Positions 3,414-22,095 are shown, counted from the first letter of the stretch. The stretch is DNA of 54,581 bases from Prorocentrum cordatum (GCA_963575745.1 CAUYUJ010000228.1:62001-116581); one strand, 5' to 3'. The notes: generated by a model from the sequence alone, not told the origin. Numbers and translations are program-made.

Positions 3414-3820
3414 GGGCCTGGGGGCCGCGCTGCGGGCCTGAAGGCGACCTGCGGCCGGCCGGGCAAAATGTCCCTCTCTCTCGTCCTCGTCCTGCCTCGT
3501 CCTCCCTCCCCTTCCTCTCGCTTTGCGCACGCAGGCGCGCACTGAACTTACTAGTCTGGCCTAGTGAAGACTGTGCGTTCAGTGGAGGGCAAGGGCGCTT
3601 CATTTTGGTCTCTGAGCTGCGGGCTCGAGACGAGTTGCCCGCCCGCCCGCAATCTCGCTCCCGCGCGCGGCCCTGCCCCCGAAGGGGGGCCTGGGGGCCG
3701 CGCTGCGGGCCTGAAGGCGACCTGCGGCCGCCCGGGCAAAATGTCCCCTTCTCTCTCGTCCTCGTCCTGCCTCGTCTTCCCTCCCCTTCCTCCCCTTCTG
3801 TCGCTTAGCGCACGCAGGCA
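3414..3820 (+). repeat. Direct repeat pair of ~130 bp
   Basis: gggcctgggggccgcgctgcgggcctgaaggcgacctgcggccg...gggcaaaatgtccc at ~3414 and ~3687. Confidence 0.85.
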
Positions 3821-5107
3821 CGCTCTTGACACATTGTGTGGCTGCTGGGCGGAGGTCACTGCCTTCGCGACGTCTTTCAAAGCAAGGTGGGGATTTGCCG
3901 TCTACACATTTTTCTTGTTGAGCTTGTGACGTCTTTGTTTGCATAATGAAACCTTTGCGCTCACCGCTGTTTTACGGCCGCTGGTGGTTCGTGGAGATTT
4001 CTGTGCCGACCCTGGGGCGATCCGCGAAAACAGTATTGGTCTGAGCGTGCCCTTTCCTGTGCGCCCCGCGCGCCTCGTTTTGCTTTGGCTGCGGTTTGTG
4101 CTTGCAGAGTGTATCGCGCGAATTCCCCATCCTCCCACACGCCTGCTCCTCGCCCGCGCTTGGCAATGACCGGGATTGCTGTCGGGCTCGTGTGAGCGAA
4201 GCGGACTGTTGACACAGCGCAGGCGGGCCCGGTGCAGTGGGGGAAGCAGGCTGCCAGGCGGCGTGGGCCTGCGCAGCTGGGCGCAGCACGGATGCACTTT
4301 GATCGCGGTCCACATCAGGAAAAGCGGGCGCCGCGGCAGGCACTTGCGCCTGATCACTTCCAGGCAGGCGGCCGTGTAGGACGGTTCGCAGAGCCACCCC
4401 GACTTCATTGGATCCTTCTTTTGTTTTCTATGCTCCTTCCGTTCTGTTGAACCAGGAGCCCCCGGCGCACTTGACTGCGATCCCAGCGTTCGGCCGCGCG
4501 GCCAAAGAGGGCCACGGGAAGGGCATTCCTGGGCAGTGGCTGGGAACCTAACTCCGTGCAACAAACGCTGGACCTCAAAACGCGACTGGCGCCGCAACGC
4601 AAAAAGGAAACGCGCCAGTTTCCAAGCACAGGGCGCGGACAGTTCAAAGTCCCCCCGAGGTGGCGGGCCCGTGGGCGCTGCATGAGCGCGCAGGACCTAT
4701 CTGAGCCGTGGCATGGGCGTCTTTGGGGCCTTCGGAGGAGTTCGCGAGCGCTAGGGAGCCGGCGGGAACCATGGCATTCCTGTGTTGACATGGGCTGCGG
4801 TGCCCGCTCACGGGAAAACTCTCCTGGCAGAGATGCCCGACAGAAAAGACACGGAAGGGGGCGTGCCGCTCCCCGTCAACGCGGCAGTGTTTGTTTCCGG
4901 CAAGGAGACACCAGGATTTTCAGAAAGGGAATGGGGACATGGGTTCGTAGCCCCGTGAATCAGACGAGCGACAGGCCACGATGAGGACGTTCCACGAGTA
5001 ACGAGGGCCGCTGAATACTTTTGGGAATCCTGAAACGTATCCAGATCCTATCATTACCTCGTTTCGGTCCTTGAGAAGCGTGGTAATCCACAAGTCCGAG
5101 GAGTTCA

Positions 5108-5224
5108 GGGGGAGGAGGAGGAGGAGGAGGAGGAGGAGGAGGAAGAGGAGCAGGAGGAGGAGGAGGAGGAGGGGGAGGAGGAGGAAGAGGAGGAGGAGGA
5201 GGAGGAGGAGGAGGAGGGGGAGGA
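5108..5224 (+). repeat. (GGA)n microsatellite; flank at the 3' end of the outer retroelement
   Basis: Direct reading. Confidence 0.95.
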
Positions 5225-5313
5225 TTTTTTTTGGCTCCACGCCCTCCCCTGGGTCCTTTAAAGGGATCTGACACCTGCTGCAACGAGGCAGTGCAGCAGG
5301 CCTGTGGATAAAA

Positions 5314-7260
5314 TTAGGCATACGTGTTGAAGCACTGCATAATATTGCCGACATCAACCGTGACACCCGCTTCCTGCTGCCTGTAATGCGGGTGTTTGCC
5401 TTTGCACAGGGCTTCCCAGCCGTACTTCGCTGCGCGCGGCGGAGGCGGCTGGCACTTGGCGGCTGACCCGCGGACAGAGGCTCCACTGGAAAGCGCCTTG
5501 CACCTAGTGCAAATAAACAAAACCGAGCCATCAGAGCAGTCGAACGCAATCGTGCGGTGCTCGAGGGCGTCCTGACTGGAGCCGAGAAACCTGAGAACAG
5601 ACCTGGCAAGGGCCTACTCTGAGATCGCTTGCTCTGAGGCAAACAGCACAGCGCCACACTCCAGACCACATTTCCCAGCGATGCCCTGCGGTCGCAGCGG
5701 CAGCGGCATGCGGGGCAGGAGTTCGTCCTACCTCGGAGAGGTCCAAGGTAGGCCACACATGCAAAACATAGACCGCCAGCCTGATAGTCTGGCGTGCCTG
5801 CGTGACAAGCTTACCAGCAGCCGCTAGCTTGTCTGGACACGACGGATGTAGATGCACTGCGTGCTTGGCTGCCGCGTCCGCATGATGGTTGCCGAGGCGC
5901 CTCCAGCGCTCAGCAGCGTCGGTCCCCGCCTCGTCCAGCTCCTTGTGAGCTGCGACTTTAGTGCACGTGGAAGGCGAGATACCTTGGGCATAGAGTTGGA
6001 GGAAAGCCCCAGAGTAGGCCCTCTTCCCACACAGCTGCTCGGCCTTGGGCCGACAGGCTAGATTGACCACGTTGCTGCACTCAGAGAAAACATCTATGCA
6101 GGCCGACGCGATCACATTGGCCCAAGTCCAGCAGCTGAACTCGGCCGACTGAGGCGTCTGAGGATATGGGGCCCACACTGGGGCCCGAATCTCGGCGACG
6201 GCCGACCCTTGGTCGCCGACCATCACCACACTGCAGCCAGCCCTGGAGAGCTCCCGAACAGAGTGACGGCTGCTAGACCCGCCAATGAAAACGCTACCCC
6301 AAACTTCAATGCCAGGCTTAGCCCCAGAGGGCGACGAAATATCTTGGTGGTGCCACACAAGAAACGGGCCATTGCCAGTCTCAGTGAGGGGCCTGGGGTG
6401 CCCATCGGCGGGGTGGCGGAAAGCTCCAGATATAATCACGAACACAGCTTCCTCGTCGTCCTTAGCTGCTAAGGCTTCGGCTACAGTACTAGCGTCAACT
6501 AGAGGAGATCTAAGCTCAGCCACTGGCTCGTGGGGGCACTCCCACAACCTGTGGAAGATCGTGCCCGGGGCGCCGCAGAACGGGCAACTGCCGTCCACGA
6601 GGTAGCCTAAGCTCACAGCACGGTCTCCAGTGAAAAAGGCTTCGGTGGCGAACGCTCTAATGTGGACCTTCTGGAGGGTCGTGTATTTCTTGGAGGCCAG
6701 GGCCTCGCGCAGCACATCATAGCATATCCTCAGGGAAAACCCAAACCCCAAGAGTAGGCCCCAGTCTGGGCCAGCCAGGTCTCCTTGGACCAACGGAGGA
6801 TGGGGGCGGTGGCAGTGCGCCAGCACGGATCATAGTCGAGCAGAGCCGCCGTCGTCAGGGATCTCAGCTGAGATCTAGGTCGGACCACCGAGAAAACTTG
6901 ACGACGGAGGCGAAGCAACTCGAGGTCGCTAGTGCCAGTAATTTCAGCGCCATAAGAAGCACCCGCGAGGGGCCCCGAGGAGAACACCTTAAGAACCTGC
7001 TGCCGAGAGGTGACTTTAATCTGACGCTTTAATCTCTTGGCCGCCCTCACAGACTTGGCGATACGCATTTTGGACTTCACCGAGCGCCCCGCCACCCTAA
7101 GCGCGCGGCCAGCCGTGTAGTGAACGCCTAAGTTGACAGCACTCGGCGTAAAATTACCTCCTAAATGCTCAACAGAAACCTCACCCCCAAGGGCCTTCGA
7201 GGAAGCGACAACAGCGGTCTTACCCAGGGCGAGGGAGCAACCGAAACAAGACTCAACGAT
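5314..7260 (-). pseudogene. Outer ORF2, 3' part: RT thumb, CxxC zinc-binding motif, RNase H-like domain and Cys/His tail (frameshifted)
   Basis: GCSLALGKTAVVAS...NLGVHY (RT domains 6-7). CPFCG...HRLWEC. RNase H pattern VFIGGSS / QTPQSAE / VFSECSNVV / KVAAH / GNHHADAAAK, with two catalytic Asp positions substituted. Frame breaks near 6770 and 5530. Confidence 0.8.
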
Positions 7261-7297
7261 GCCGTAGCCATTTTGGCTCAAGCCATTTTGGCTCAAG
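7261..7297 (+). other. Genomic copy of the dinoflagellate spliced leader (22 nt) followed by a 15-nt relic SL
   Basis: GCCGTAGCCATTTTGGCTCAAG (7261-7282) then CCATTTTGGCTCAAG (7283-7297); exact match to the DinoSL consensus. Confidence 0.97.
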
Positions 7298-7337
7298 CCG
7301 CCCGGCAGCGCGCCCGCCGGTGCCCCCGGCGCCAGCC

Positions 7338-8481
7338 ATGGCTTCCTCGAGCGATGATGAGCCCCTCGTGGCGCTCCCCCGCCCGGCGGGCCCCGGCCCG
7401 GCGCCCGCCCCCGGGGACGCGCCTGGCCGCCGTGTCCGGCCCGGCGGGCTTGGCCGGGGCCGGCCGCCAACGACAACGGCGCGCGCGGCGCTTGAGGCGC
7501 GGAGTCGGCATTCTCTCCACGTAAGAGACCATGGGCCAATCACTTCGGAGGCCATGGGTGATGCCCACCGAGCGACTGGTGTTAAGCCCCTTCAGACGTT
7601 TGTTTATTTTGTCAAGCAGAGGTCCCGTGGTACAGGGGATACCCGCATTGGTAACGTGAGTAGCCCCTTCTTTTGTGAAAATGGTGAGCCCCTTACCTTT
7701 GAACGGGCCTTGGCGGGGGTCAACACCCACGACGCCTCTAAGGAAGATGATTTATTTTTTGCAGCATCTGACCTTTGCGTAGCCCTCGGAGCGGCCACTC
7801 CCACTGAACGGATAGCAGTCCACATTTGGTCACAATATACTCGTAGTGCACAGTTCGTATCGTGTGTTGCGACTGCCGCCAGAGACCCTCATGTCAGTGC
7901 GATCGCTAATGTGGGACACAAAGCGTTAGAAGCCGTGCTTTCATCAGCGTGCTTGGATGGTCCGTGCCTTCCTCGTAAGATCCTTCCTAACGGTAGGTCG
8001 AAGACCCCAAACATAGATGCAGGTCAGCAAACTGCTGGATCTATGGGCGGTCTGCTGCGGGCCTTGCAAGTAGCCGCCGTGCGTTGCCTGGCTGACAGAC
8101 CCAAAGCCAGCCAGCTGGGCAGAGGTCAAAGGTCTGTGCCGGGTCTTACAGGCACGCAACCTCATGCCCAATCATTGCGCGATTGCGCTACACCTGGCAG
8201 GCTTAGCCGATTTGTCAGATTTCTCAGCGGCTGAGCCCACAATGGAAGGCACGAACACCCGTCTAGCATTGAGCATCTTAGATGAGGACGCTGCTGCAAG
8301 GGAACTCAATCTCACGGCCCCGGAGGGGCGGCTCTTGATCCGGATCCTGGCCTGCCAGTGGTGGGTAGTCTGCTCGGCGGTGTATTTTGGAGCCTCGACC
8401 GCTTGGAGATTTGAATCCCGGCTGCATGCAGATTCTGTGCGCCTCGCTGAGGCTTGCAAGGGCAAGCGCAAAAGGTCCTGA
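7338..8481 (+). pseudogene. ORF0: intronless unknown protein (~380 aa) with one probable frameshift near 8080
   Basis: ATG in a gccagccATGg context 40 nt after the relic SL. Frame 1 is open to 8234. An overlapping frame (...AWLTDPKPASWAEVKGLCRVLQARNLMPNHCAIAL...KGKRKRS) is open from ~8074 to 8481. Confidence 0.6.
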
Positions 8482-8542
8482 CCGTGCTTGGCCTGCAGAA
8501 AAGTTGGAGGAAAAGCGCTCCCCACCGGCCTCAGGGGTGTGG

Positions 8543-8590
8543 TGGGCGAATTTCTGACGTTAAGGGCCCTTAACGTCAGAAATTCGCCCA
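8543..8590. repeat. Perfect 48-bp palindrome with no spacer
   Basis: tgggcgaatttctgacgttaaggg|cccttaacgtcagaaattcgccca. Confidence 0.97.
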
Positions 8591-8798
8591 GGGGACTTGC
8601 CCCGCGGTGAATTTCTGTCGTCTTGAGCTTTTTAACATCAGGTAACTGCCCCGGGCATCCTTGAGGCGCACCCGTGCCTTGTGCCGTGATTTGTCGCTTA
8701 TCTAATTGGTCATGCAGTACCTCGTTGCAGTCGTGTTTGCAGAGTCGCCGGCCGTCTGTCGGGCAGCCTCCGGCTGGCCCGGGAGGGGGGTGGGGCCG

Positions 8799-8799
<1 letters not shown>

Positions 8800-8889
<90 letters not shown>
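8800..8889 (+). repeat. (GTC)n microsatellite
   Basis: Direct reading. Confidence 0.95.
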
Positions 8890-9336
8890 GGTGCCCCGCC
8901 GTTGCTGCTGCCGCCGTCGTCGGTGTTCTTATCCAGCCACTTGCGCTGACGCATGCAAGCAGTTTGCATTCACCACGATCGGGGATCCTCTCGGTGTGCA
9001 CTTGATGTGATGGGGGTGTTTCTGTGTTTGCAAGCTCGGCTTCTCTGCCGTTCTATGGGACGATCAGGCATGGGGCAGAGAGCGTCGCCAAATTTGTCCA
9101 CCCCTCCTGGTTCTCCTTGGCCCCCTCCCTCCTTCCCTCCCCGCCCTGCTCCCCGCTCTCTCTCCCCCCCCTGTCTCTCCGTTACCTTGTCACCACCGCC
9201 GCTCCATCATCATTGATTCGTGGAGAGCGTGGGCGGGAGTGCGAGTCACGGCTTGTAGCACTCGTTTTGTTGGACGTCTTCGTCTGCAGCAGCGAGCTCA
9301 CCTCTGGCCTGGGAGGGGGCGGGTGTCCTCGGCGTT

Positions 9337-9357
9337 GTCGTCGTCGTCGTCGTCGTC

Positions 9358-9425
<68 letters not shown>
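9337..9425 (+). repeat. (GTC)n microsatellite
   Basis: Direct reading. Confidence 0.95.
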
Positions 9426-9429
<4 letters not shown>

Positions 9430-9696
9430 CGTGCCCCTGGGGGAGCTCTACCTTTCGTGGGCGTTCCGCTAATCTTGTCCCCATGCCTGTTTGTTGCTGC
9501 TTTCGACCGTTGTTGTACACCGCGCGGTGCCCTCCCCCCCACCCCCGTACCTGCTGTCCGGCCGCCCTCGCTGGGCGTGCGCGGGGAGGAGGTCGGGTTT
9601 GCTCCCGCGCCCCGTGTTGCCTCCGCTGTCCTTTTTCGGCCCAGCGGCCACGAGGGTAGGACGCCCTGGCGCCGCTTCGGCTGGGCCGTCGCGCCC

Positions 9697-11616
9697 ATGG
9701 GGCGCTCGCGCCGCCGCCGCGATGATAGCCGCAGTCGCTCCGGGCGCCGGCGCCGCCGCACCCCATTGCGGCGTCGCCCCAGCTCCACGTCATCTTGTAG
9801 TCCTACGCCACTGGCAGAGTCGGCGGTGGAGGCCCCATCGCCCGGCCGGGAGGGCGTCCCTGGCCCCCTCAGCCCGCACACGCCCCTGCAGCGCCCCCCC
9901 GGCGTCTGGGACCACCCCGAGTTCCCTGGCGTCAGCACCAAAGCTGTGGGCACGCCCCAGGCGCAGCCCGCCCTAGGCTTCTCCTCCCAGCTGGGGTCTC
10001 CAGTGCCACGGTCCCCGGCGACGCCAGTCAGGAGAGCCCGCCTGTCTCCGGCGCCTACCTCGCCTGGCCAGGCGCTCCACAGCTCGCCAGGTCCGCCGCT
10101 CCATAGCCCGCCAGGCTTGCCACCGGGCTGGGAGTCCAAGCGCGACCTCGCGGGCGCCCTTTTCTTCTTCAACCGGGCGACTAACGAGTCTCAGTGGGAG
10201 CACCCGGCGACGGCGCCGCCACCGCCGCCGCCGCCGCCGCCACCCCCGCCCTCGCGTGAGCCCGCCCACCCGAGCGCGCCCGCCAAGCCTGCCCCTGCCT
10301 CCACCCAGCCGGCTGTGGTGGCGCTGGCGCCGTCTCCCGCCAGCGTGGCGCCAGTCCTGGGGCCAGGCCCCCTGCCGCCTACCCCGGTCGCGGCCGCTGC
10401 CCCGGCCAACAGCGAGGCGTCCAGTGCTCTCAAGGCGGGTTCCCCCGTTCCTGGCCCGCTGGGCGCGTCCCGCGAGGAGGAGCTCAGGCAGATCAGGCTG
10501 GAGCTCGAGGCTCTCCAAACCGAGCGCGCCCAGTGGGACGAATTCACCTCATCTTCCACTGGGTTGAAGTTCTGGTTCCACGTGGCGTCGGGGACCATCG
10601 CGCCCACGTGCCCCCCAGAGCTCCTCCAGCGCGCGGCACGCAGCTCCGCCCTCAAGGCCAGGCTGGAGGCCTTGTCGTCGCCGGGGGCCGCGTCTGGCAC
10701 GCATGCGAGCCCATGCCTGGAGTCGGGTCCGGCTTCCCGTCCGGGCGGTTCCGCCGGAGCCGTCCCGCCTTTGGGCCATGCTTCGCCCTCCCCGGCTGCC
10801 CCTCATGGCTTGCTGCGTGAGGTGCCTGAGGAACCCGGCGTGCCCCCAGTCAGTGGTCCCTACTTTGCCGGTAGCCCTTCGGTCCCTGCCAGCCTCCCCA
10901 GCAGCAGCGGTCCAGCGGCATCCACCCCATCCTGGGCGGCTGGCCAGCCGCCGGGCCCCGGCGCGGCTGTGAGCGCGGCAGTATCGGCCCAGGTGCATGC
11001 TAACTCGGCTCCCGCCGCGTCCCCCGCGCCGTCTCTTGGCTTGCCCCCTGGCCCGCCGCTCCCTGCGAGTCTAGTTAGGTTCCACTCGCGTGCTGGACAC
11101 GAGGAGGCCGTGTCCAGCTGGCTCATGCGGCTGCGGCAGACAGTGGGGAACCATAAAGACCCGAGGCTGAAATTGACGGCTCAGTTTGCCTCCAACCTGA
11201 CTTCCCAGGTAGATTTGCACAACGTTGCGCAAGCCATGGGCATACAGATCGTCCAGGGGCCGCGCCGTGGTGCCAATGCTTACGCTGGCCCGCCCCCTTT
11301 CGCGGTGGCCAACGGCTGCCCAGCGCAGCCGAATCTCGACGTCACGACGGCGTTGAATCCCAAGCAGTCTTTGCAAATCCAGCTGCTGAACCGCCGGCTT
11401 GGGACCGTGATCGTTCGCGGTGGCCGGGCGGTTTTGGACACGTGGATTGAAGAATTGATCCTCTTCCTAGGGCCCGTGACCGATTTACAGTCGCCCGTCC
11501 CTCCGGCCTCATCCGCGCCCCTGCTCTGCGCGCCGGCCCCCAAGAGGTCGGCGCGGCAGATCTTGAGCGAGGCGGAAGCCGCCGACCAGGGTGGAGGCCC
11601 GCGGGCCTTCCAGTAA
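9697..11616 (+). CDS. Inner ORF1 (639 aa): RS-rich N-terminus, WW domain, Pro-rich linkers, short coiled coil, second WW-like motif
   Basis: First ATG (gcccATGg) in ORF 9457..11616. LPPGWESKRDLAGALFFFNRATNESQWEHP (~10117-10206) is a canonical WW. WDEFTSSSTGLKFWFHVASGTIAPTCP is a degenerate WW. Lies directly upstream of the APE-RT ORF. Confidence 0.75.
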   Translation: MGRSRRRRDDSRSRSGRRRRRTPLRRRPSSTSSCSPTPLAESAVEAPSPGREGVPGPLSPHTPLQRPPGVWDHPEFPGVSTKAVGTPQAQPALGFSSQLGSPVPRSPATPVRRARLSPAPTSPGQALHSSPGPPLHSPPGLPPGWESKRDLAGALFFFNRATNESQWEHPATAPPPPPPPPPPPPSREPAHPSAPAKPAPASTQPAVVALAPSPASVAPVLGPGPLPPTPVAAAAPANSEASSALKAGSPVPGPLGASREEELRQIRLELEALQTERAQWDEFTSSSTGLKFWFHVASGTIAPTCPPELLQRAARSSALKARLEALSSPGAASGTHASPCLESGPASRPGGSAGAVPPLGHASPSPAAPHGLLREVPEEPGVPPVSGPYFAGSPSVPASLPSSSGPAASTPSWAAGQPPGPGAAVSAAVSAQVHANSAPAASPAPSLGLPPGPPLPASLVRFHSRAGHEEAVSSWLMRLRQTVGNHKDPRLKLTAQFASNLTSQVDLHNVAQAMGIQIVQGPRRGANAYAGPPPFAVANGCPAQPNLDVTTALNPKQSLQIQLLNRRLGTVIVRGGRAVLDTWIEELILFLGPVTDLQSPVPPASSAPLLCAPAPKRSARQILSEAEAADQGGGPRAFQ

Positions 11617-12179
11617 GGGCGGGCTGCTGACTGCCTCCCGCTCGGCTTGCATTGGCGCCGTGTGAATTTTCGGCGGGACACCCCGCTACATGTCCTCTGT
11701 TTTTTCACAGCCACTGGAAGCCTTATGAACCGTATTGTTTGCAGCGTAGCGGTAAAACATGCGTGTCCAACACAGTGCCGCCACGTGCGTGTGTGCCCTT
11801 GTCTGGCGCGTGCGCCCTGCAGCCCGCGTTGCATGCTGACGTGCTCCTTGTTAGCGTGCGCGCGAGTATGGTCCTCCATGCAGTGTCTCGGCAGCTTTGC
11901 AATCAGGGAGTCCGTACGCGCATGACCGAGTTGGTTGATCAGTGTTGCAGTTGCTCTTGAGTTGTGCTTCGCAGTCCTTGACACGCACCGGCTCGCTGAT
12001 TGAGGCCGTCCTTGCCCCGTGTACGTGCGTGCAAGGTTTACCATGCATGCTGTCATCCTCTCTGCGCCCCGCCACGTCCTGCCCGTCTCGCTCCGCCCTC
12101 AGCCGTACAGCAGCCACGCGGCGAACCCGCCGTGCCGCCCGCGGGGGCGCTCGCCGCGCAGGGCGGGAAGTGTCCAGCC

Positions 12180-15100: not shown

Positions 15101-16178
15101 CCTGCTGGGGGTGCTCTTTGACTCCCGGCTCTCTTTCCGCCCCCTGCTTCGGGCTACGCTGGCCAAAGGTCATGAGCTGTTCGAGGCGCTGTTTTTCGCC
15201 GGCGGGTCTGGGGGCTTTGGTCTCCCAGTCCTGTGTGCCCAAGTGCCGTCGCGCGTGGAATCTGCCTTGCTCTACCCCTCCCCGTTCCTCTTCCTGGCCG
15301 AGCGGGCGCGTTTTTCACTCGATCATTTGCAAGCGTCCTGGGCACGGCGTTTGCTCGGATGCGCTATCGGCCCAGAATTGCCCGGCGCGGTTGTCGTAGC
15401 GCAGTGTGGGTGGCAGCTGCGCTTGGGCACTAAGATGCTTGAGCGTACGGTCCTCGCTCGCGCAAGGCTGCTCCTCCTGCCCGCCGAGCACCCGGGTGCC
15501 AGTATGCTGACAGTGGCCTCGGGCACGAGCTGCTCCACGTGGGCGAGCGCGGTCCGGGCGTGGATGTGCTCTCTGGACCCTCCCCTTCCTGACGTGGTAG
15601 AGTGGCCTTTCGCCGGACCTCCGGCGTGCGCCAAGGCGCGCGCTGATCCTGCAGCGCGTCGTCTGCTCCTCCGGAGCTACAAGTTTTATGTCGTCCGCCC
15701 TGCACTCCTTAAGCTGGATCTTCTCTCGTTCCAGCGGGCTACTGCAGATGCCCTGCCTGTCTTTCGTCTCCCGTTCTCGGCGTGGCTGTCCGGCCCGCCG
15801 GGAACGCACTGGAACCTTTTAGATTTGGCACTTGGCCCTGGCTCCTGGCTCCAGTTCCGCCTCTGGTCTGTGGTGCGAATGTCTGGATGCTGGCCTCTCC
15901 AAGTGCTGGGGGCCCCGCTCTGCGTTTCTACGCTGCCCCGTTGTGGGGCTTGTGGCGCGCGTGACGTAGATGTGTGGCATGCCCTCTTTTCCTGCTCAGC
16001 CTCGGCTGAACTTAGGTCCGCTCTGTGGTCTCGCCTCCCCTTGCCTCCTCCCTCCTGTCCTGCCCAGGTTTCTCAGTTTCTCTTCCACCAGTGCCGCCCG
16101 CCAGCGGAGCGCCGTGAGCATGTCCATTTTGTTGCCACGGCCGTGCTCTTGGCCATGACTGGTGCCATGCATCATTAG
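12180..16178 (+). CDS. Inner ORF2 (1332 aa): APE-type endonuclease, reverse transcriptase and C-terminal zinc-knuckle-like motif
   Basis: Uninterrupted ORF starting ccagccATGg. APE motifs: EVLN, CYPAP, ICGDGNVH, THDSGTCIDLI, SDHRLV. RT motifs: LRPISI, QQGG, DLQWAFD, AQGRRFS, QFVDD, LLGVLFD. C-terminus: CGACG...HALFSC. Confidence 0.93.
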   Translation: MDSCGPECPAKPLRDLILRWLGTESRGLEMCALAKDCDALLATCPSLPPPLLLCCNGAAAPLAALVSALSSLLRREVAPSLARAGLRQQPRQVVSPYAGGIRLGDAVPSRPAEGPEPCSSVRLEVLNPGRLGFLALGTDVFLEWRLHAVAHVLSGSGADICVLPGARLPPGAVLPAGFPFSWLGPRSVSWGAVGIFVRTEIVSLLRPLPDLSSDRAQWFEFWGDAAPGAPTPGPSFVFCACYPAPGGDVATWSAIVSSVTEVRARHPGARVLICGDGNVHLSYVLQHPPGCACLHCRQSAQDRTIEAMITAAGFVACNPPVATHDSGTCIDLILAERHCLIPVTVAHASGVDSDHRLVSCSFPCAFRPPQLSGLCRVTWRTDGQWDDVLLAVAPVLAYLADAVESLIACEWLRPPWSGGGATKKQRRALLDAAAWARDVIYVLAGFAAGATKASAAAPVRPSRPPLDPDAYESQAAFKRAVAQAAWAERHLAFKRFSDLRTVSPGLAERFLSEFFRSRNPFEIALADPVDGHPLSVEEMLEALQTDMMDRVRNDFPCNPEEQRAQACAVSAIRSVGAGPASPGLALYSTTEVDAVLDSLKTTSSALRGCFASVRSAVPEGRRVTLALANLSRQCAITSTLWSSRQVTPLRKSGPRVVRSTLCLRPISISAVMTSVVDGLWTLRNAPLLQAYCGVAQQGGVGDPLSLLLALLLHAQLRCAQGLPTYWAVTDLQWAFDVASHPAMLLNAYEAGVRGHDWLLLDDFMSSDNQYIALRGHISSLFSLGGGTAQGRRFSVGVFNAQLKWLAEEVYRVLPGSCAAWVEPHLRRLCLALPVPDSPAACGPAPPAVGGDLEALAVEVASAAAAEQAPFPSAVRAMMRGALRLASEADRAYLMDRLGTGLLPPLQFVDDLTVAASSPGALRAIVSREPWSACSRYASRTRSMFNYKTGKTAAMVILDSPPPGDIGCPVVDTKALLGVLFDSRLSFRPLLRATLAKGHELFEALFFAGGSGGFGLPVLCAQVPSRVESALLYPSPFLFLAERARFSLDHLQASWARRLLGCAIGPELPGAVVVAQCGWQLRLGTKMLERTVLARARLLLLPAEHPGASMLTVASGTSCSTWASAVRAWMCSLDPPLPDVVEWPFAGPPACAKARADPAARRLLLRSYKFYVVRPALLKLDLLSFQRATADALPVFRLPFSAWLSGPPGTHWNLLDLALGPGSWLQFRLWSVVRMSGCWPLQVLGAPLCVSTLPRCGACGARDVDVWHALFSCSASAELRSALWSRLPLPPPSCPAQVSQFLFHQCRPPAERREHVHFVATAVLLAMTGAMHH

Positions 16179-16409
16179 GCCCGGCCTGTTTGCGGGGCGC
16201 CCGGCGTGAGCCCCTGACCGGTGCTTGGGCAGGGGGGTGCCAGGCGTGGGTCGGCACCGTCGTGGCCTGCGCCCAGGGGGGGCGAGCGCGCAGGTCGACT
16301 GTGGTCCGCGTGCGCGCGGTGGCAAAATGCGGCTTGGATCCTCTGCTACCCGCGCCGCGTGCGCGCGCTTCCCACCGTGCCTGCTTGCCTGTCCTGCTTC
16401 TCCTCTGCG

Positions 16410-16770
16410 TTTTCTCTGCCTCACAGTGGTGATGCGGCCCCTGCGGCCCGGTCTGCGTGCAAAATCCTGCCTTACTGTTGTGGTCCCATCGCACATTCTA
16501 TCTTGTTGTATGCTTCCCAGCAGGTGTGTGAGGGTGTGCAGCTGCGTGCAAAAGTCCATGCGTTGTTCCTGCTTCACTGTCGTGATGCGGCCCTGCGGCC
16601 CGTACTGCGTGCAAGTGTCTGCCTCACTGTTGTGTTGCGGCCCCTGCGGCCCGTGTTACGTCCTTATTCCTGCCTCACAGTGGTGATGCGGCCCTTTGTG
16701 GTCCCAATGACCTCGTTTGATTTGACGGTATCGTCTCTCGCACATTCTATCTTGTTGTATGCTTCTCGGC
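16410..16770 (+). repeat. Short direct repeats in the inner 3' UTR
   Basis: About four diverged copies of ctgcctcacagtggtgatgcggccc; two copies of cgcacattctatcttgttgtatgcttc (~16490, ~16739). Confidence 0.8.
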
Positions 16771-16980
16771 TTGTGTGTGTGGGTGTGCTTCTCGGCTTGT
16801 GTGTGTGTGTGTGTGTGTGTGCAGTGCAACTATGCCACGACGTCCCTTTGCGATCGTTGGGTCTGACTTTCCGTTTGGAGGAGCACGCTTCCCGTCTGAC
16901 CTCTGGGGGGGGGGCTGTCGTCCAGTGCCCGCCTCTGTCAGGCAGATTTCGGCTGACCTGCGAGGGGGCTGTTGTCTCTG

Positions 16981-16984
16981 TCGT

Positions 16985-17050
<66 letters not shown>
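16981..17050 (+). repeat. (GTC)n microsatellite
   Basis: Direct reading. Confidence 0.95.
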
Positions 17051-17053
<3 letters not shown>

Positions 17054-17590
17054 CTCTCCGTCGTCTCGTTGGTTTTTGTGTTGTCCCTTGTCTCGTCGCC
17101 GCTCTTGCGTGGTATGCACTCGGAGAAGGGGAGCAGCGGTGCGATGTTGCATGCTTGTTGTCCTCTCATTGTATCCATCTGTTTGCATCATGTGGTGCCT
17201 GTTGTTTTGCTTGCACTTGTTGCTTCTCTTGCCCTGTTCTCTATCTGCTGGCCGCGCACGCGGGGCCGTCGCCCTAGCGTCTCCATTTGGCTGGGGGGGC
17301 CGCCCTCCTATTCGAGGGCAGGCGCCGTCGCCGAGGGGCGCCTTAGGGCGGGTGGGTCGGCGTGGGCTGCGAGCTCTCTTCTTTCTCAAGGGGAGCCTTA
17401 CGAAGGGCGGTGAAAGACCCGACCCTAGACGGAGGCACCCTGCGCTCCGCCTCGCCCACTTCTCTCTGGGGGGGGGTGAGCCGGCGCGCCGCGGGGGTCC
17501 GCGGACCGGGCGCGCGCGGCGAGGGCGCGCGGCGGGCGTCCGGCCTGTGGCCGCCGCAGCGGAGGCAAAAAAACAAAAAAAAAAAAAAAA

Positions 17591-19810
17591 GACGATCGAT
17601 TTGACCACGGTCCGATGTTGGCCCGTACACGAGAGACCCTGGTCGTCGATATACGCATCGAGGTCGAGCCTGGGGATGGAGGGGAGAGAATCGTATCCGC
17701 CCTGGAGAAAAAAACGAATGAACGTGGTGGCCATCGAGCACCCTGCGATAACCCCATCCAGGCAGAAGTAGGGGCCTTCCAGCCACCCTCCTAGACAGAG
17801 GAAGCGCCAACACCTGTAGGCATAAATGCAAAGACGGGCAATCGCAAGAGGGAATCCATGTTTCATGCAACGGGCCTCGAGCTCTTCCAGACTGATGTCC
17901 CCATAGAACTTGCGCAGGTCGAAGAGAACAGAACATGAGGACTCCCCGATGGCAAGGCCCGTCTCGGCGGTGACAGCTTGACGCCAAACCACATCGGCAG
18001 CTCCGCGAAACCTGCCAGCAGCCCAGTACCGTTTGGGGTGTTCTTGCCCCCAGTTCAAGGCAAAGTGCCGCCGACAGCGACACCAAACCCTGTACCAGGA
18101 GCAGAACACCCCAACCGGCCTGTATCCACCAGTAGGCTTCGGCAGAAGCGCCAAGGTGACGACAGAGATCTGCGGAGGAAGGCAGCCTAGCGCTTCCATG
18201 GCCGAAACAATGGCGCTGAGGCAATCGAGAGCAGCATCTGGCAACAAAGAGAAATGCTTGCAGTGAAATCCGTCCACGGCCACAGCCGAAGAATCTTTGT
18301 AGGACTTAGAGATAGCACGGATTTCGCTGGCCGTGGGTCGGGGAAGAGGCTCGACGACCTGACCATCAAACTCTGCCCCTCGACCCTCGCCCCATATGCT
18401 GCTGAACCTCCCTCCCCCCGCCTTGAGCAGGGAGAGAGGATCACTGACGACGCGCCCAGCAGCAGAGAGAGCAGAAGAAGGGACCCACGAGACAGGATCT
18501 TTAATGCACTGGTGAACCCTTGTAGCCCCTTGGTTGGTGCCAACATGCAGCCAAGCATCCCAGTCTGATCGGCACTTGGCGGCGTACTTGGAGCTGGCGG
18601 CCTTGACGGCCTCGTGAACCTGAGTGTGCAGATCAGCGAGCGACCCCACATCCCCGCCAGAGCCAATGGCGGAGACCTCCCGAGCCGCTCGCTTGAACAG
18701 CGGCTCGTAGTCTTCCACCGCGGCCGTGATGCTGGGCGGGGGCCCCACCACCACGCAACTGAGCCTGGCAGCAGTGGCAGCAGCGCCTCCGCGCCGAGCG
18801 TGCATGAAGGCGCGAAGCTGTTGCCCGAGCCAACCGATCGCGCGATGACCAGGATAACGCACCTTACCATCCTGGCCCAAGATAGGTTTCCACACAAGTT
18901 GAGGACCCAAGCCCCTGGAGCCAAGCTTGGGGGGGGGGGGGGAACACCCACCAGGGGAATAAGGTCACGTTCAGCGTGGTCGGCCCACTTCCTGTAAAGA
19001 GGGCCCAGAAGACGTTTGGCCCCCTGACCGTCTCCATTCTGAAGACGACATTCAGCCTCGGACGCCAGCGCAAGTTCCCCAGCCCAACAACTTTCTCTGG
19101 GGGCAGGGCCGAACACCACCTGACACGGCAGGGGGGGGGGCTTCCTGAACGAGAGAGCGTGAAGCACCGCCAGCTTGGGGTGGAACACCAACTGGGCGGG
19201 CCTGTGGGGGGAGAGCTCCGTATCCAATCTCGTATCGACCGACTTGAGACCCTTCGCCAGACCGCCCGAACAAACGAAGTAGTCGAACGTCGTGGGAGGG
19301 CCCACAGGATAGTGCGTCGCGACAACGGGGAAGATGGGGGAAGCCCTCAACTCAGACACAAAACTGGAAGACTCGAGCTCAGCAGGCTCCAGATTAAAGT
19401 CGGCACCGAGCACCCACGGCTGGCCCACAGCCGAAAGCTGCTCACCGAGCCTCGCGAGCAGAGACAGATTATCATCGCTGAGGCCTTCGAGTGGTGAAGG
19501 TAGGCAGAGGCAACCAGGATGGGGGGAGCCCCAGGGAGGTGCGCAGAACACGCGATGCATCGCCCAGGCGTCGTGATGGCATCCTCGACTTCCAGAAGCC
19601 CCATCCAAGAGCGCACGAAAATGGAGGGGCCCAAACCGACTTCCATTCATGCCTTATGCACCAAGCACTGGCCTGCTCGATGTCCCCTTTGGAAACCAGA
19701 CGGTGCTCCCGACCGAGCACAAAGTGGACAGAGCAATCTTCGAGCAAACCCTTCAACGTACCCCACGGGTTGGCGTTAATGGTCTGAATCGTGAGTGGCA
19801 CCAAACTGTC
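17591..19810 (-). pseudogene. Outer ORF2, 5' part: APE endonuclease and RT through the YIDD motif (several frameshifts)
   Basis: APE pieces in three frames: TIQTINAN, LGREHRL, VASAYL, LGADFN, TFDYFV, SPHRP. RT motifs: DGFH, LLPKPTGGYRPVG, FDLRKFY, GVIAGCSMA, AYIDD. One frameshift coincides with the G-run at ~18929-18942. Confidence 0.88.
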
Positions 19811-20360
19811 ACAGTTAGAGGCCGATGGCTGCTCGCTGCCGGCAAAGAGGAGCAGGCACAGGCAGGCTGACATTGCTGACCGAATGCGCTGTCGAATTGA
19901 AACAGTCAGAGGGGTGCTGAGTCCTCTGAGAATCCAAGGGTTCGAATTTGCCCTTGGGGCGTCCTGACTTAAAATCTCAGAGAGCGACGAGCTCAACGTG
20001 GGGATGAGATCCCCCTCCATGGGGGGGGCAGACAGAAGTGGCCACGTGCGGGACAGCCCCGTCCGTGGCATCCTTGCGCGCTGACTTACCAAGGGAGTGA
20101 ACAGGATACAAAGCCCTTGGCATCGCGAAGTCCAGCAAAGACACAGGGGCAAAGACAGGGGTCCGATCAGCCTTGCGTCGAAACATACCCCTCTTGCGGA
20201 TGAGGGCATCTTGCGCTACTGAGCGGGACTCCGTGGGCAGAGGTGAAAAACCTGCTTCGCCCCCCCCTGGAGGCAGCCTTCCGAGCGAAGGACCTGCGGA
20301 CCCCAATCGAACGACGACCCGAGGAGGCGACGAGCATCAGGGCTAGCCTCCAGGGGGTAG

Positions 20361-21701
20361 CTAATCGTTGGCTGTGTGAGTGGCCGCGGCAATGCGGTCA
20401 GCGCGCTCACGAGCAGTGCCTGTCGCAGAAGGCGTGGAAGGAGCCGCTGCCGCAGCGCCCGCTGCACCTGACGCTGCTGCGCCACCACCACCTGGAACAG
20501 CTCCTGGGAGAAGAGGAACGCCCTTGCCCGCGAACTGGCCGACCGTGGCTGCCTGTGGAGTGCCAGGCGCAGGTGCCGTGCCTGGCGCCACCCCGGCAGC
20601 AGACGGCGGGGGTGCGCCATCATCTCCTTCAGCGTGAGCACCAGCATCAGGAGGTTCCTCGAAGGCCGTTTCCTGCTCCACCACACGAGGCCGCTTAGCC
20701 GCAAGCCTCTTGATGTGCAGCGCGTGGGCGGACTTGAGGCCGTCGGCCTTCTGCTTGGCCTCGGCGAAAAGGGTGCCCGCCATCGCCGTGAGCCCTGCCT
20801 TGAGCTGTTGCACACGTGACTCGATCTCGATGTTGTCCGACTCGTCAAGCTCCACGCCGTCACACTTGAACAGGTCCGACACGCTGATGTCAAAGACCTT
20901 CGCGAGACGCTCCTGATCCATGATGTCCTCCAACGCAAGCTTGACCGTAGCCGTGGGTGGCTGCTTAGCTGCCTCTTGAGACTCAACCAAGTCCTGCAAG
21001 AGAGTCGCATGCTCGCCTTCTGCATTGGTGAGCTCCGCGCGCAGCTCCAGCACCACCGCCTTCTGATTGTTGAGCTGAGCTTCGTACTGTTCGTACTTCT
21101 CAACTGCCGACTCCAAACGCTTGTTGATCCCATGCACTTTCCAGTGAGCCCGATTGAGACGAACTTGAATAGCTTCTTCTGCCTGCTTCGGCGCGGTGAG
21201 GGCCTTGGCTGCACGACGATGAGCTGCTGCGCCTGCAGAGTCTCCCATACGTTCAGCGAAGCCTGCCATGGTCTCGTACTCCGCGGCGGTGAACTTTGCA
21301 GCAGCAGCACCAGCAGGAACGGGTTGCTGGCCGCTTCCCTTGGGGTAGCCACCTCCAGCACCTTCCTGTTGCTGCCCTGCGTCGCCACCGCCTGGACCCT
21401 TGCCCCACGCAGCGCCACCGTTGAGCTGCCCGTAGCCGAACAACTGACGCGCTGCATCACCAGACCATGCCGAAGTTGGGACTTGCTTATAGGCTCCACA
21501 GTGTTTGCAATAATAGAACCGAGCGGCATTCTTGGCGCAACCACAAGCCTGGCACTTCCACTTCTTGCCTGGCAGCTGGTTGTCCGCCTGATCCTGAGCA
21601 CCGCCGCCGCCCTTGCAGAACAGAGGACCAGGCACCAGAGGAGGCCAGACATCGCTGTACGACAAGCCCTTGCCTCCGCCTTTCCCCTTGCCCCATGCCA
21701 T
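20361..21701 (-). CDS. Outer ORF1 (446 aa): RanBP2-type zinc finger, Gly-rich segments and coiled coil
   Basis: KKWKCQACGCAKNAARFYYCKHCG; heptad-like helices (LESAVEKYEQYEAQLNNQKAVVLELRAELTNAE); ATG 173 nt after the SL. Confidence 0.8.
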   Translation of the reverse strand: MAWGKGKGGGKGLSYSDVWPPLVPGPLFCKGGGGAQDQADNQLPGKKWKCQACGCAKNAARFYYCKHCGAYKQVPTSAWSGDAARQLFGYGQLNGGAAWGKGPGGGDAGQQQEGAGGGYPKGSGQQPVPAGAAAAKFTAAEYETMAGFAERMGDSAGAAAHRRAAKALTAPKQAEEAIQVRLNRAHWKVHGINKRLESAVEKYEQYEAQLNNQKAVVLELRAELTNAEGEHATLLQDLVESQEAAKQPPTATVKLALEDIMDQERLAKVFDISVSDLFKCDGVELDESDNIEIESRVQQLKAGLTAMAGTLFAEAKQKADGLKSAHALHIKRLAAKRPRVVEQETAFEEPPDAGAHAEGDDGAPPPSAAGVAPGTAPAPGTPQAATVGQFAGKGVPLLPGAVPGGGGAAASGAAGAAAAAPSTPSATGTARERADRIAAATHTAND

Positions 21702-21874
21702 GCCGAGGGAGTGGCTCTATGGACTGACCACCGACCAGCGCATAGCCTAGTCGTGGTGAAAGCTGCGATGCGTGGGGCGGACCACGCACCGCTCAGCCTG
21801 GGGCGAACCAGGCGAAAGTTGAAAGCTGGCCGCGGACTAGCGGTATCCACTTTGTTCCCAGGGGAAACCAAAAC

Positions 21875-21896
21875 CTTGAGCCAAAATGGCTACGGA
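21875..21896 (-). other. Genomic copy of the dinoflagellate spliced leader (22 nt)
   Basis: Reverse complement reads TCCGTAGCCATTTTGGCTCAAG. Confidence 0.97.
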
Positions 21897-22095
21897 GGAT
21901 GAGGGGGAGGAGGAGGGGGAGGAGGAGGAGGAGGAGGAGGAGGAGGAGGAGGAGGAGGAGGAGGGAGGAGGAGGGAGGAGGAGGAAGGAGGGAGGAGGGA
22001 GGAGGAGGGAGGGGGGAGGAGGGATGCGGGAGGAGGGAGGAGGCGTAGGAGGAGGAGGGGGAGGAATAGGATGAGGAAAAGGATGAGGGGGAGGA
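21897..22095 (+). repeat. (GGA)n microsatellite; flank at the 5' end of the outer retroelement
   Basis: Direct reading. Confidence 0.95.

What the first reader, a model, noticed from the sequence alone, without database searches (positions are those of the whole stretch)
5225..21896. Two different LINE-type retrotransposons whose 5' termini are the complete dinoflagellate spliced leader
Seen: both elements start exactly at base 1 of a 22-nt DinoSL (7261 +, 21896 -) and end in oligo(A), and their ORF1 and ORF2 architectures differ. Known: the SL is trans-spliced onto dinoflagellate mRNAs, and SL relics mark retrogenes. LINEs normally define their 5' end with an internal promoter or a ribozyme, while SLACS/CRE/NeSL elements instead insert into SL RNA genes. 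Inference: these elements transpose through SL-capped RNA. Because the SL ends in AG, the integrated copy could supply its own trans-splice acceptor. Any read-through transcript would then be recut and recapped at the same 5' end, giving a promoter-free, self-regenerating life cycle.
Basis: partly seen in the sequence, partly recalled or inferred. Interest (0 to 1): 0.9.

Follow-up and report, generated by a model that had tools for sequence, protein, structure and literature searches.

The report
Spliced-leader-headed LINEs in a dinoflagellate
Two unrelated jumping genes of the LINE type, one inserted inside the other, each begin exactly with the short capped leader that dinoflagellates splice onto their messenger RNAs, which shows that they copy themselves from ordinary leader-capped messages and hints at how such elements can manage without a promoter of their own.

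Summary
Element E2 lies on the minus strand (21896-17591 plus 7260-5225). It sits in a (GGA)n microsatellite and is a decayed LINE. Element E1 lies on the plus strand (7261-17590), has open reading frames, and is inserted inside E2's reverse-transcriptase domain. Each starts at base 1 of a 22-nt DinoSL, ends in oligo(A) and has target-site duplications (E1 5 bp, or 5 of 6; E2 14 of 15).

E1 also carries the canonical 15-nt SL relic directly behind its SL. That is the known mark of a second round of trans-splicing onto a DNA copy that already encoded an SL.

The two ORF2s share no BLASTP similarity, and both family profiles hit human LINE-1 ORF2p best in the PDB. The flanks are not SL RNA genes, and Rfam found no ribozyme.

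So it is well supported that SL-capped, polyadenylated LINE mRNA is the transposition template. The promoter-free, self-regenerating cycle remains inference, backed only by the relic. A census of other copies was not possible: no genome is held. One contig pair in another run shows an SL on a second E2-family copy.

Six literature searches found no explicit description. Song 2017 and a Schistosoma paper come close. I rate it a new variant of a known kind, of moderate to high interest.

The parts
5107..5224 (.). (GGA)n microsatellite, left flank of E2. Its last 15 nt (5210-5224, GGAGGAGGGGGAGGA) are one copy of the E2 target-site duplication.
5225..7260 (-). E2, 3' part: the rest of ORF2 after the E1 insertion, the 3' UTR and the terminal A8 (5225-5232, T8 on the plus strand).
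5534..6829 (-). E2 ORF2 C-terminal piece (432 aa) with a C-x2-C-x8-H-x4-C motif. It aligns to P0019 residues 1176-1543. An RNase H-like motif was seen by eye only; neither Pfam nor the PDB profile search confirmed it.
6733..7260 (-). E2 ORF2 piece directly 3' of the E1 insertion point (176 aa). It aligns to P0019 residues 920-1095.
7256..7260 (+). E1 target-site duplication, upstream copy (ACGAT).
7261..17590 (+). E1: a complete LINE of 10,330 bp, made of SL, relic, 5' region, ORF1, ORF2, 3' UTR and oligo(A). It is nested in E2.
7261..7282 (+). E1 5' terminus: full 22-nt DinoSL, GCCGTAGCCATTTTGGCTCAAG.
7283..7297 (+). 15-nt SL relic, CCATTTTGGCTCAAG: the old SL cut after its internal AG.
   Evidence: The relic form is as described in PMC12014239.
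7338..8234 (+). E1 'ORF0' (298 aa). It has no Pfam family. Its single relative among 1.84 billion representatives is P0024, a 99%-identical 176-aa protein. The frame is open through the SL.
9697..11616 (+). E1 ORF1 (639 aa): a WW domain plus a C-terminal region that is also found upstream of the endonuclease in relatives P0005, P0006, P0012 and P0017.
12180..16178 (+). E1 ORF2 (1332 aa, open): APE endonuclease (residues 146-355), an RT with QFVDD, and a C-terminal C-x2-C-x7-H-x4-C motif.
16179..17566 (+). E1 3' UTR with short tandem repeats (periods 51, 26 and 3).
17567..17590 (+). E1 oligo(A) tail, A7CA16.
17592..17596 (+). E1 target-site duplication, downstream copy (ACGAT). It is preceded by one extra G at 17591.
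17591..21896 (-). E2, 5' part: SL, a 173-nt 5' UTR, ORF1, and ORF2 endonuclease and RT up to the E1 insertion. This copy is frameshifted, and it lacks 40 nt at 19624/19625 relative to contigs in runs X1, X2 and X3.
17591..18964 (-). E2 RT piece: Pfam RVT_1 is weak (E 0.0015). It is 36% identical to P0019 residues 451-911.
18190..19653 (-). E2 APE endonuclease piece: Exo_endo_phos, E 4e-4. It aligns to P0019 residues 263-442.
20361..21701 (-). E2 ORF1 (446 aa): an N-terminal C-x2-C...C-x2-C motif and a coiled-coil-like middle. No Pfam family reaches its cut-off.
21875..21896 (-). E2 5' terminus: full 22-nt DinoSL, TCCGTAGCCATTTTGGCTCAAG.
21897..22095 (.). (GGA)n microsatellite, right flank of E2. 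Its first 15 nt (21897-21911, GGATGAGGGGGAGGA) are the second TSD copy (14 of 15). Read on the minus strand, this is a long (TCC)n pyrimidine tract directly upstream of the SL.

Best explanation
E1 and E2 are two unrelated autonomous non-LTR (APE endonuclease plus RT) retrotransposons of a dinoflagellate. [quoted passage not shown]

Target-primed reverse transcription copies this RNA to its very first base. Every full-length insertion therefore carries the SL as its 5' terminus, next to the target-site duplication. This much is shown by the anatomy.

A new copy has no need to carry its own transcription start. If any transcript enters it from upstream, the AG dinucleotides inside or at the end of the DNA-encoded SL can serve as trans-splice acceptors. 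A fresh capped SL is then put on at the same place. E1's SL-plus-relic shows that this happened at least once in its lineage, at the internal AG. That it is the routine way of making element RNA, and that no internal promoter exists, is inferred.

The same machinery acting on other SL-mRNAs would make the abundant SL-tagged retrogenes of dinoflagellates. This too is inferred.
For: - **SL ends.** Exact SL lies at both 5' ends, with a chance expectation of 0.01. Oligo(A) lies at both 3' ends.
- **TSDs abut the ends.** The duplications abut SL base 1 and the tail: E1 ACGAT, E2 14 of 15.
- **Clean nesting.** Taking out E1 plus 6 nt restores E2's RT frame. The E2 pieces are colinear on P0019 across the joint.
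- **Relic.** The canonical 15-nt relic sits behind E1's SL. It has the form described for recycled cDNAs (PMC12014239 and PMC6050394, passages).
- **LINE proteins.** The APE domain is found by Pfam in both elements. The RT of both family profiles hits human LINE-1 ORF2p best in the PDB (E 6.6e-5 and 4.2e-3).
- **Two different families.** P0001 and P0019 show no BLASTP similarity, so the SL end arose in two separate families.
- **Flanks.** The flanks are unrelated to each other and are not SL RNA genes. There are no LTRs or other internal repeats of 80 bp or more. No ribozyme or other Rfam family was found.
- **E1 looks young.** ORF1 and ORF2 are open. Contigs of 4 runs from 4 studies match its body with 0-6 differences per 0.3-3 kb (table 8).
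- **E2 family is multicopy.** Contigs in 3 runs share differences from the window copy, including 40 nt that it lacks. Two contigs of run X2 join an SL to the same 5' UTR (table 7, place 21869).
- **E1 5' region outside the window.** It is represented by a 99%-identical protein in a EukProt set.
Against: Only one copy of each family could be inspected end to end. No genome is held, and scans of three collections gave no further 5' ends.

No RNA run was listed, so there is no direct evidence that E1 or E2 RNA is trans-spliced rather than started at the encoded SL.

The relic proves one re-splicing event in E1's ancestry, not a habit. E2 has no relic.

E1's first 2.4 kb (the ORF0 region) has no counterpart in the named relatives. 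It could be sequence picked up from an upstream SL-tagged locus, in which case the relic would belong to that locus rather than to the LINE.

The base at 7261 (G) could come from the cap rather than from SL base 1.

A 15-bp slippage duplication would give the same sequence as a relic, although it would have to fall exactly at the AG boundaries.
Confidence: 0.7

Rival explanations
1. The SL is a fossil plus a promoter. A founder RNA of each family was trans-spliced once. Since then the DNA-encoded SL and the sequence behind it have acted as an internal or initiator-like promoter, as proposed for retrogenes, so element RNA simply starts at or near SL base 1 and trans-splicing plays no further part.
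For: Song 2017 (PMC5585692, passages) proposes that the DinoSL's TTTT/TTTG motifs act as a basal promoter that lets retrogenes survive. LINEs in general carry internal promoters (established knowledge). In AT-rich IMG/VR contigs the SL is DNA-encoded a median of 49 nt before the first ATG of ORFs, behind AT-rich motifs. This suggests that a DNA-encoded SL can serve as a directly transcribed leader.
Against: E1's relic needs transcription that began upstream of an encoded SL, followed by splicing inside it. That is the opposite of starting at base 1. Promoter activity of the DinoSL is a proposal, not a tested result, in the passages I read.
Confidence: 0.2
2. The copies are template-switch chimeras. 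The elements' own RNA has another 5' end. At the end of reverse transcription the RT jumped onto an SL RNA or the 5' end of another SL-mRNA, as in human U6/L1 chimeras, so these two copies are accidents.
For: Template switching at LINE 5' ends is established for L1 (recalled). Five bases differ at the SL/5' UTR joint between the window's E2 and 2 contigs of run X2.
Against: Both joints in the window show only the 22-nt exon, with no recognisable SL RNA intron. An accident would have to have happened in two unrelated families 15 kb apart, and again in the X2 copy at the same 5' UTR position. E1's relic is in the exact register produced by splicing.
Confidence: 0.05
3. E1 is a 5' transduction chimera. 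SL, relic and the ORF0 region (7261 to about 9250) come from an SL-tagged retrogene or other locus that lay upstream of a progenitor E1. They were co-transcribed with it and are now carried along.
For: The ORF0 region has no match in relatives that do share ORF1 and ORF2. Two microsatellites (8800-8889, 9325-9429) lie between it and ORF1. The ORF0 region had little or no contig cover in runs X2 and X5 while the body was covered (table 2). The tool warns that contig depth cannot rank parts.
Against: Contigs of runs X1 and X3 cover 7470-8546 at 99% or more (table 8), so the region travels with the multicopy unit. Even if true, this reading still needs an SL-capped composite RNA as template, so it modifies the main explanation rather than replacing it.
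Confidence: 0.15
4. The elements are SLACS/CRE/NeSL-like site-specific insertions into SL RNA genes, or the arrangement is an assembly artefact.
For: SL sequence lies at an element border, as in SL-gene-specific elements.
Against: The flanks are E2's RT domain and a (GGA)n tract. Neither is an SL gene, and there is no second half of an SL exon on the other side. The endonuclease is APE-type. The TSDs and the restored reading frame argue against misassembly.
Confidence: 0.02

Closest known systems
DinoSL-tagged retrogenes, or 'recycled processed cDNAs', of dinoflagellates (Slamovits & Keeling 2008, recalled and cited in passages of PMC6050394; Song 2017, PMC5585692; PMC12014239)
   Same: The DNA-encoded SL or relic sits at the 5' end. 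The relic has the same 15-nt form after re-splicing at the internal AG. Origin is by reverse transcription of mature mRNA.
   Different: Here the SL-tagged unit is itself the autonomous element that encodes endonuclease and RT, with a complete 22-nt SL, oligo(A) and TSDs visible. Song 2017 saw 'RNA-dependent DNA replication' enriched among tagged genes but read it as activation of retroposition functions, not as the LINEs' own 5' ends (passages). The 2018 review called the mediating element unknown and favoured LTR elements.
LINE-1-type APE/RT non-LTR retrotransposons
   Same: An APE endonuclease and RT in one ORF2, a separate ORF1, a C-terminal Cys/His motif, an oligo(A) tail and short TSDs. 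Human L1 ORF2p is the best PDB hit for both family profiles.
   Different: The 5' end is a trans-spliced host leader rather than an internal-promoter 5' UTR. E1's ORF1 has a WW domain and E2's has a Cys4 motif. The RT is so divergent that Pfam RVT_1 misses E1. Clade placement by phylogeny was not done.
L1Tc/ingi of trypanosomatids (Pr77 internal promoter plus HDV-like ribozyme); titles and abstract starts only, in the listings (PMC1874656, PMC3383444, PMC3185411, PMC8190864)
   Same: A LINE in a host where essentially all mRNAs are SL trans-spliced and genes are transcribed in long units.
   Different: L1Tc makes 'unspliced' transcripts from its own promoter and trims the 5' end with a ribozyme. 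E1 and E2 carry the SL itself, and no ribozyme was found by Rfam. This is an opposite solution to the same problem.
SLACS, CZAR, CRE1/2 and NeSL-1 (recalled; not read here)
   Same: A link between a non-LTR element and spliced-leader sequence.
   Different: Those elements insert into SL RNA genes with a restriction-like endonuclease, so SL exon fragments flank them. Here the SL is part of the transposed unit, the flanks are unrelated DNA and the endonuclease is APE-type.
SL-containing retrotransposons in Schistosoma mansoni (PMC5832876, passages)
   Same: [quoted passage not shown]
   Different: That was a tentative remark; they themselves allow for chimeric assembly. It gave no termini, TSDs, relics or family analysis.

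Membership tests
Non-LTR retrotransposon (LINE), APE-type | Apurinic/apyrimidinic-type endonuclease domain N-terminal in ORF2 | tested here: met
   Pfam Exo_endo_phos: E1 residues 146-355, E 6.3e-6 and above the cut-off. The E2 piece has E 4e-4, below the cut-off, but its full-length relative P0019 has E 1.6e-12.
Non-LTR retrotransposon (LINE), APE-type | Reverse transcriptase domain of the LINE type | tested here: met
   The E1 family profile A1 hits LINE-1 ORF2p RT in the PDB (E 6.6e-5 to 6e-4), with QFVDD invariant in the alignment. E2: RVT_1 E 0.0015; relatives P0019 and P0022 pass the cut-off; profile A2 hits L1 ORF2p at E 0.004. Single-sequence Pfam and PDB searches miss E1's RT.
Non-LTR retrotransposon (LINE), APE-type | 3' oligo(A) and target-site duplication; no terminal repeats | tested here: met
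   A7CA16 and A8. TSDs of 5 bp and 14 of 15. The self-comparison gives no repeat of 80 bp or more inside 5225-21896.
Non-LTR retrotransposon (LINE), APE-type | Multicopy, with independent insertions | tested here: inconclusive
   There is no second copy in the window. Contigs like E1 and E2 occur in 4 laid runs, and E2-like contigs share differences from the window copy. Insertion sites of other copies could not be seen.
LINE-1 clade specifically | Placement within the L1 clade in an RT phylogeny; an L1-type ORF1 (Transposase_22/RRM-CTD) | not tested
   No reference RT set was available for a tree. Pfam finds no L1-type ORF1 domain in either ORF1.
SL-gene-specific elements (SLACS/CRE/NeSL) | Insertion inside an SL RNA gene, with the SL exon split by the element | tested here: not met
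   The flanks are the E2 RT domain and (GGA)n. A complete SL lies on one side only.
SL-gene-specific elements (SLACS/CRE/NeSL) | Restriction-enzyme-like endonuclease C-terminal to the RT, and no APE | tested here: not met
   An APE domain is present in both elements.
DinoSL-tagged retrocopy (recycled cDNA) | DNA-encoded DinoSL or relic at the 5' end of the transcribed unit | tested here: met
DinoSL-tagged retrocopy (recycled cDNA) | Copy of a cellular gene that does not encode its own retroposition machinery | tested here: not met
   Both units encode endonuclease and RT.
Ribozyme-terminated LINEs (R2, L1Tc, RTE-type HDV-like ribozymes) | HDV-like ribozyme at the 5' end | tested here: not met
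   No Rfam family was found at gathering score in the window, and only chance-level hits at E up to 5 in both 5' regions. A ribozyme not covered by Rfam is not excluded.

The most novel reading that the evidence does not exclude
Dinoflagellate LINEs have given up an internal promoter. They ride on the host's pervasive transcription and use the AGs of their own DNA-encoded spliced leader as trans-splice acceptors. Every read-through transcript is therefore cut and recapped to the exact element 5' end. This would be a third, host-borrowed answer to the LINE 5'-end problem, beside internal promoters and ribozymes.

The same LINEs would be the long-sought engine behind the thousands of SL-tagged retrogenes, and perhaps the viral insertions, in dinoflagellate genomes. 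Landing behind a pyrimidine tract, as E2 does behind (TCC)n, would then favour a copy's re-expression.
Probability: 0.4. Interest if true: 0.8.

Novelty: new variant of a known kind. Interest (0 to 1): 0.62.

Why it matters
LINEs must rebuild a full 5' end at every cycle. The known solutions are an internal promoter or a 5' ribozyme. An element whose 5' end is the host's trans-spliced, capped leader would show a different solution, one that is only possible in SL-splicing hosts.

It would also name the machinery behind dinoflagellate retroposition. APE-type LINEs working by target-primed reverse transcription on SL-mRNAs would account for it. The reviews I read call that machinery unknown or lean towards LTR elements (PMC6050394, PMC5585692).

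Practically, it means that censuses of 'DinoSL-tagged retrogenes' include LINE copies. It also means the SL offers an exact marker for full-length, possibly active LINE copies in these very large genomes.

Tried and rejected
- **Whole genome.** None is held, so the proposed census of copies could not be run.
- **More copies with 5' ends.**
  - The metagenome-contig scan with the ORF2 alignment gave 2 loci, neither reaching a 5' end.
  - Genome contigs gave none.
  - Viral contigs gave none, either with the E1 family alignment or with the E2 RT.
- **SL-coded peptides.** I looked for them at the N-termini of 18 stored proteins and found none.
- **ORF0 with its SL-coded extension against the protein collection.** No hit at near lengths.
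- **Sequencing runs.** No RNA holder was listed, so expression and trans-splicing could not be read from reads.
- **Read laying.** The many loose ends at 7262 and at 7295-7298 come from all SL-bearing contigs of the runs, not from E1 copies, so they say nothing about E1's flanks. 124 further loose ends and 1500 pieces were not shown. Parts with little cover (for example 7394-9076 in X2 and X5) are not evidence.
- **IMG/VR SL sites.** 0 of 136 unique sites had an E1- or E2-like protein downstream.
- **Single-sequence fold of E2's C-terminal piece.** Mean pLDDT was 37.7, which is unusable, so no fold search was run. The RNase H-like motif I saw by eye was not confirmed by Pfam or by the PDB profile search.
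- **P0001 alone against the PDB.** No hit.
- **Earlier findings of this scan.** Nothing relevant.
- **Readings rejected.** SL RNA gene array flanks, LTR element, HDV-like ribozyme, assembly artefact (see rivals and membership tests).
- **Not in print, as far as searched.** Six full-text searches and passages of 15 papers gave no explicit description of LINEs that begin with the DinoSL. The library lacks most subscription journals. The paper cap stopped me from reading PMC9651163, and no supplements were opened.

Full report
[quoted passage not shown] A partial third match is a relic. Chance expectation is 0.01, and 0 of 100 shuffles gave three matches. With the preceding base, both are the full 22-nt DCCGTAGCCATTTTGGCTCAAG: G at 7261, and T at 21896 on the minus strand. 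This matches the form quoted in PMC8045281.

The only long A or T runs nearby are T8 at 5225-5232 and A7CA16 at 17567-17590. These ends define two nested units. E1 is 7261-17590 on the plus strand. E2 is 21896-17591 plus 7260-5225 on the minus strand.

**The nesting is exact.** E2's RT frame reads ..KSIV up to 17591 and resumes IVES.. at 7260. The bases ACGAT are duplicated at 7256-7260 and 17592-17596, and removing E1 plus six bases keeps the frame. The five E2 protein pieces map in order on P0019, a 1645-aa relative. The joint falls between its residues 911 and 920.

E2 itself sits in a (GGA)n microsatellite. It has a 15-nt duplication, 14 of 15 identical, that includes the irregular GGGGG (5210-5224 and 21897-21911). 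Each unit was therefore inserted as a whole, from SL base 1 to the tail. The flanks (another LINE's RT domain, and a microsatellite) are unrelated to each other and to SL RNA genes.

**What the units are.**

E1 has these parts:
- An open 1332-aa ORF2 with an APE endonuclease (Pfam E 6.3e-6), an RT with QFVDD that is invariant in an alignment of nine relatives, and a C-terminal Cys/His motif.
- A 639-aa ORF1 with a WW domain (E 5.7e-12).
- A 298-aa upstream 'ORF0'.

Pfam misses E1's RT, but the family profile hits human LINE-1 ORF2p best in the PDB (E 6.6e-5).

Relatives of ORF2 numbered 15 proteins, 38-57% identical over the aligned part. The named ones are from Prorocentrum cordatum, Polarella glacialis and Fugacium kawagutii. 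In three of them a WW domain lies upstream of the endonuclease, and four share ORF1's C-terminal region. The WW-type ORF1 therefore belongs to the family.

ORF0 has no such counterpart. Its single relative among 1.84 billion representatives is a 99%-identical 176-aa protein, found in a EukProt set labelled Pyramimonas sp. CCMP1952. I take this to be a stray dinoflagellate transcript in a transcriptome-derived set, but that is recollection and inference, not a test.

E2 has an ORF1 with a Cys4 motif and a coiled-coil-like middle. Its ORF2 consists of APE, RT and a further 430 residues or so that include a Cys/His motif. It is 36% identical to P0019, and more distantly related to an Amphidinium carterae protein. 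The window copy is dead. It is frameshifted, split by E1, and lacks 40 nt at 19624/19625 that contigs of runs X1, X2 and X3 have.

E1's and E2's ORF2s show no BLASTP similarity (best E 0.28), so two separate LINE lineages are involved. I saw an RNase H-like motif in E2's tail by eye. Pfam, the PDB profile search and a failed fold did not confirm it.

**The relic.** Directly behind E1's SL lies CCATTTTGGCTCAAG (7283-7297). This is the SL minus its first seven bases, that is, the part left after splicing at the internal AG of GTAG|CC. It is the relic form described for recycled dinoflagellate cDNAs (PMC12014239 and PMC6050394, passages).

It means that a DNA copy already carrying an SL at this place was transcribed from further upstream, received a new SL inside the old one, and was reverse-transcribed again. 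A 15-bp slippage duplication would give the same letters, but it would have to fall exactly at the two AG boundaries.

**How it most likely works.**

Shown:
- The template of each insertion was an RNA that began with the SL and ended in poly(A).
- It was integrated with target-site duplication, as in target-primed reverse transcription.
- In E1's line an SL-bearing DNA copy was re-spliced at least once.

Inferred:
- Element RNA is normally made by transcription entering from outside and is recapped by trans-splicing at an AG in or at the end of the encoded SL.
- The SL cap serves translation of ORF1 and ORF2.
- No internal promoter is needed.
- The same proteins, acting on other SL-mRNAs, make the SL-tagged retrogenes.

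What can be seen is use of the internal AG.

A small observation in line with the model: E2's SL lies behind about 200 nt of (TCC)n on its own strand, a ready pyrimidine tract. In run X2 the 14 SL-bearing contigs with loose ends before the SL have a (TCC)n-like consensus (agreement 0.8, table 7). This could equally reflect target preference.

**Evidence beyond the window.** It is thin.
- E1-like sequence is held by 20 listed runs of 11 studies, none on record as RNA.
- Laid contigs of four runs from four studies match E1's body almost perfectly. They match E2 at 90-99%, with shared differences from the window copy. Both families are therefore multicopy or widespread, and E1 is young.
- Two contigs of run X2 join an SL to E2's 5' UTR with five different bases at the joint (place 21869). 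This is a second E2-family copy headed by an SL.
- The many loose ends at E1's SL belong to every SL-bearing locus of those runs and are uninformative.
- No further 5' ends could be fetched, and no genome is held.

**Rivals.**
- *The SL is a fossil that now acts as a promoter* (the Song 2017 idea). This is the main alternative, at about 0.2. The relic speaks against it for E1.
- *Template-switch chimeras* (about 0.05). These would have to recur in two families and in the X2 copy, and they show no SL RNA intron.
- *5' transduction.* E1's first 2.4 kb may have been picked up from an upstream SL-tagged locus (about 0.15). This would move the relic's owner but not the conclusion that the template was SL-capped.
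- *SL-gene-specific insertion or misassembly.* Both are excluded by the flanks, the APE domain, the TSDs and the restored frame.
- *Ribozyme.* No Rfam ribozyme or other family was found.

**Comparison with what is known.** SL tags and relics on retrocopies are well known. That LINEs 'presumably' supply the enzymes is stated in Song 2017, and LINE-mediated integration of dinoRNAV genes is argued in PMC10235124. The 2018 review, by contrast, calls the mediator unknown and favours LTR elements.

Song 2017 found 'RNA-dependent DNA replication' enriched among DinoSL-tagged genes. With hindsight these are probably such LINE copies, but they were not read that way. A Schistosoma paper remarks that six SL-containing (retro)transposons 'might' be trans-spliced retro-transcribed elements.

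In trypanosomatids, L1Tc uses the Pr77 promoter and a ribozyme to make unspliced RNA (titles and abstract starts only), which is the opposite strategy.

Six full-text searches and passages of 15 papers gave no explicit account of autonomous LINEs whose 5' terminus is the DinoSL. Subscription journals, supplements and PMC9651163 were not seen.

**Verdict.** I rate it a new variant of a known kind, because two known things (LINEs and SL-tagged retroposition) are joined in a way that bears on how LINEs define their 5' end and on what drives dinoflagellate retroposition. Interest is 0.62.

Noticed in passing
IMG/VR loci L003-L121 (for example L013-L015, L022, L053-L059 and L026/L060-L063, from bins named GVMAG-M-3300023179-82, GVMAG-M-3300023174-52, GVMAG-M-3300023174-43 and GVMAG-S-3300013131-116): The exact DinoSL core occurs in 119 stretches of 'viral' contigs, giving 136 unique sites. 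129 of the 136 are preceded by A, which makes the full 22-nt SL. None has a relic. The DNA behind them has a median GC of 21%.

The first ATG follows after a median of 49 nt, and 104 of 125 sites are followed by an ORF of 100 aa or more. Several sites lie on one contig, on both strands, gene by gene, often behind a recurring AT-rich motif.

Of 30 such ORFs scanned, 8 have DUF4116 repeats, others have ABC_tran or CCCH fingers, and 17 have no Pfam family.

This looks like giant-virus genes (or genes of an unknown AT-rich genome) with a DNA-encoded host spliced leader behind a promoter-like motif, possibly leader mimicry. Search (16 papers; titles and abstract starts only) showed no description. 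PMC9651163 may bear on it but could not be read..
   Followed up: partly
L069 (IMG/VR contig of 5319 nt), SL at 5299-5319 (-), ORF at 2929-5205 (-): A 5.3-kb contig begins, on its coding strand, exactly with the DinoSL core and encodes a viral RdRP_1 domain (E 4.5e-7). It fits the published dinoRNAV assembly with a 5' dinoSL (mentioned in PMC10235124)..
   Followed up: partly
window 9697-11616 (+), with relatives P0005, P0006, P0012 and P0017: This LINE family's ORF1 carries a WW domain plus a conserved C-terminal region with no Pfam family. I do not recall this ORF1 type from other LINE clades. Several public gene models fuse it with ORF2 or with neighbouring genes; P0012, for example, also contains an aspartyl protease..
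   Followed up: partly
run X2, contigs with loose ends before window 7262 (table 7): 14 SL-bearing contigs share a (TCC)n-like sequence directly upstream of the SL (consensus agreement 0.8). Run X5 shows the same tendency. E2 in the window has the same context. This may be a target preference of an SL-headed element family, or a context that favours re-splicing.
   Followed up: no
window 30200-33000, 34400-35650, 38500-39470, 48300-50160 and 51180-53760: Large arrays of diverged tandem repeats fill much of the rest of the window (self-comparison). None of the 12 long open frames tested outside the elements has a Pfam family above its cut-off. The first 3 kb are 77% GC.
   Followed up: no
window 24237-24476 (-): A short stretch is similar (46-56% identity) to parts of two Prorocentrum cordatum gene models, P0009 (residues 1629-1758) and P0016 (residues 822-883), that also contain E1-type LINE sequence. 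It is probably another repeat caught in those chimeric models. An A9 run lies at 24359-24367..
   Followed up: no
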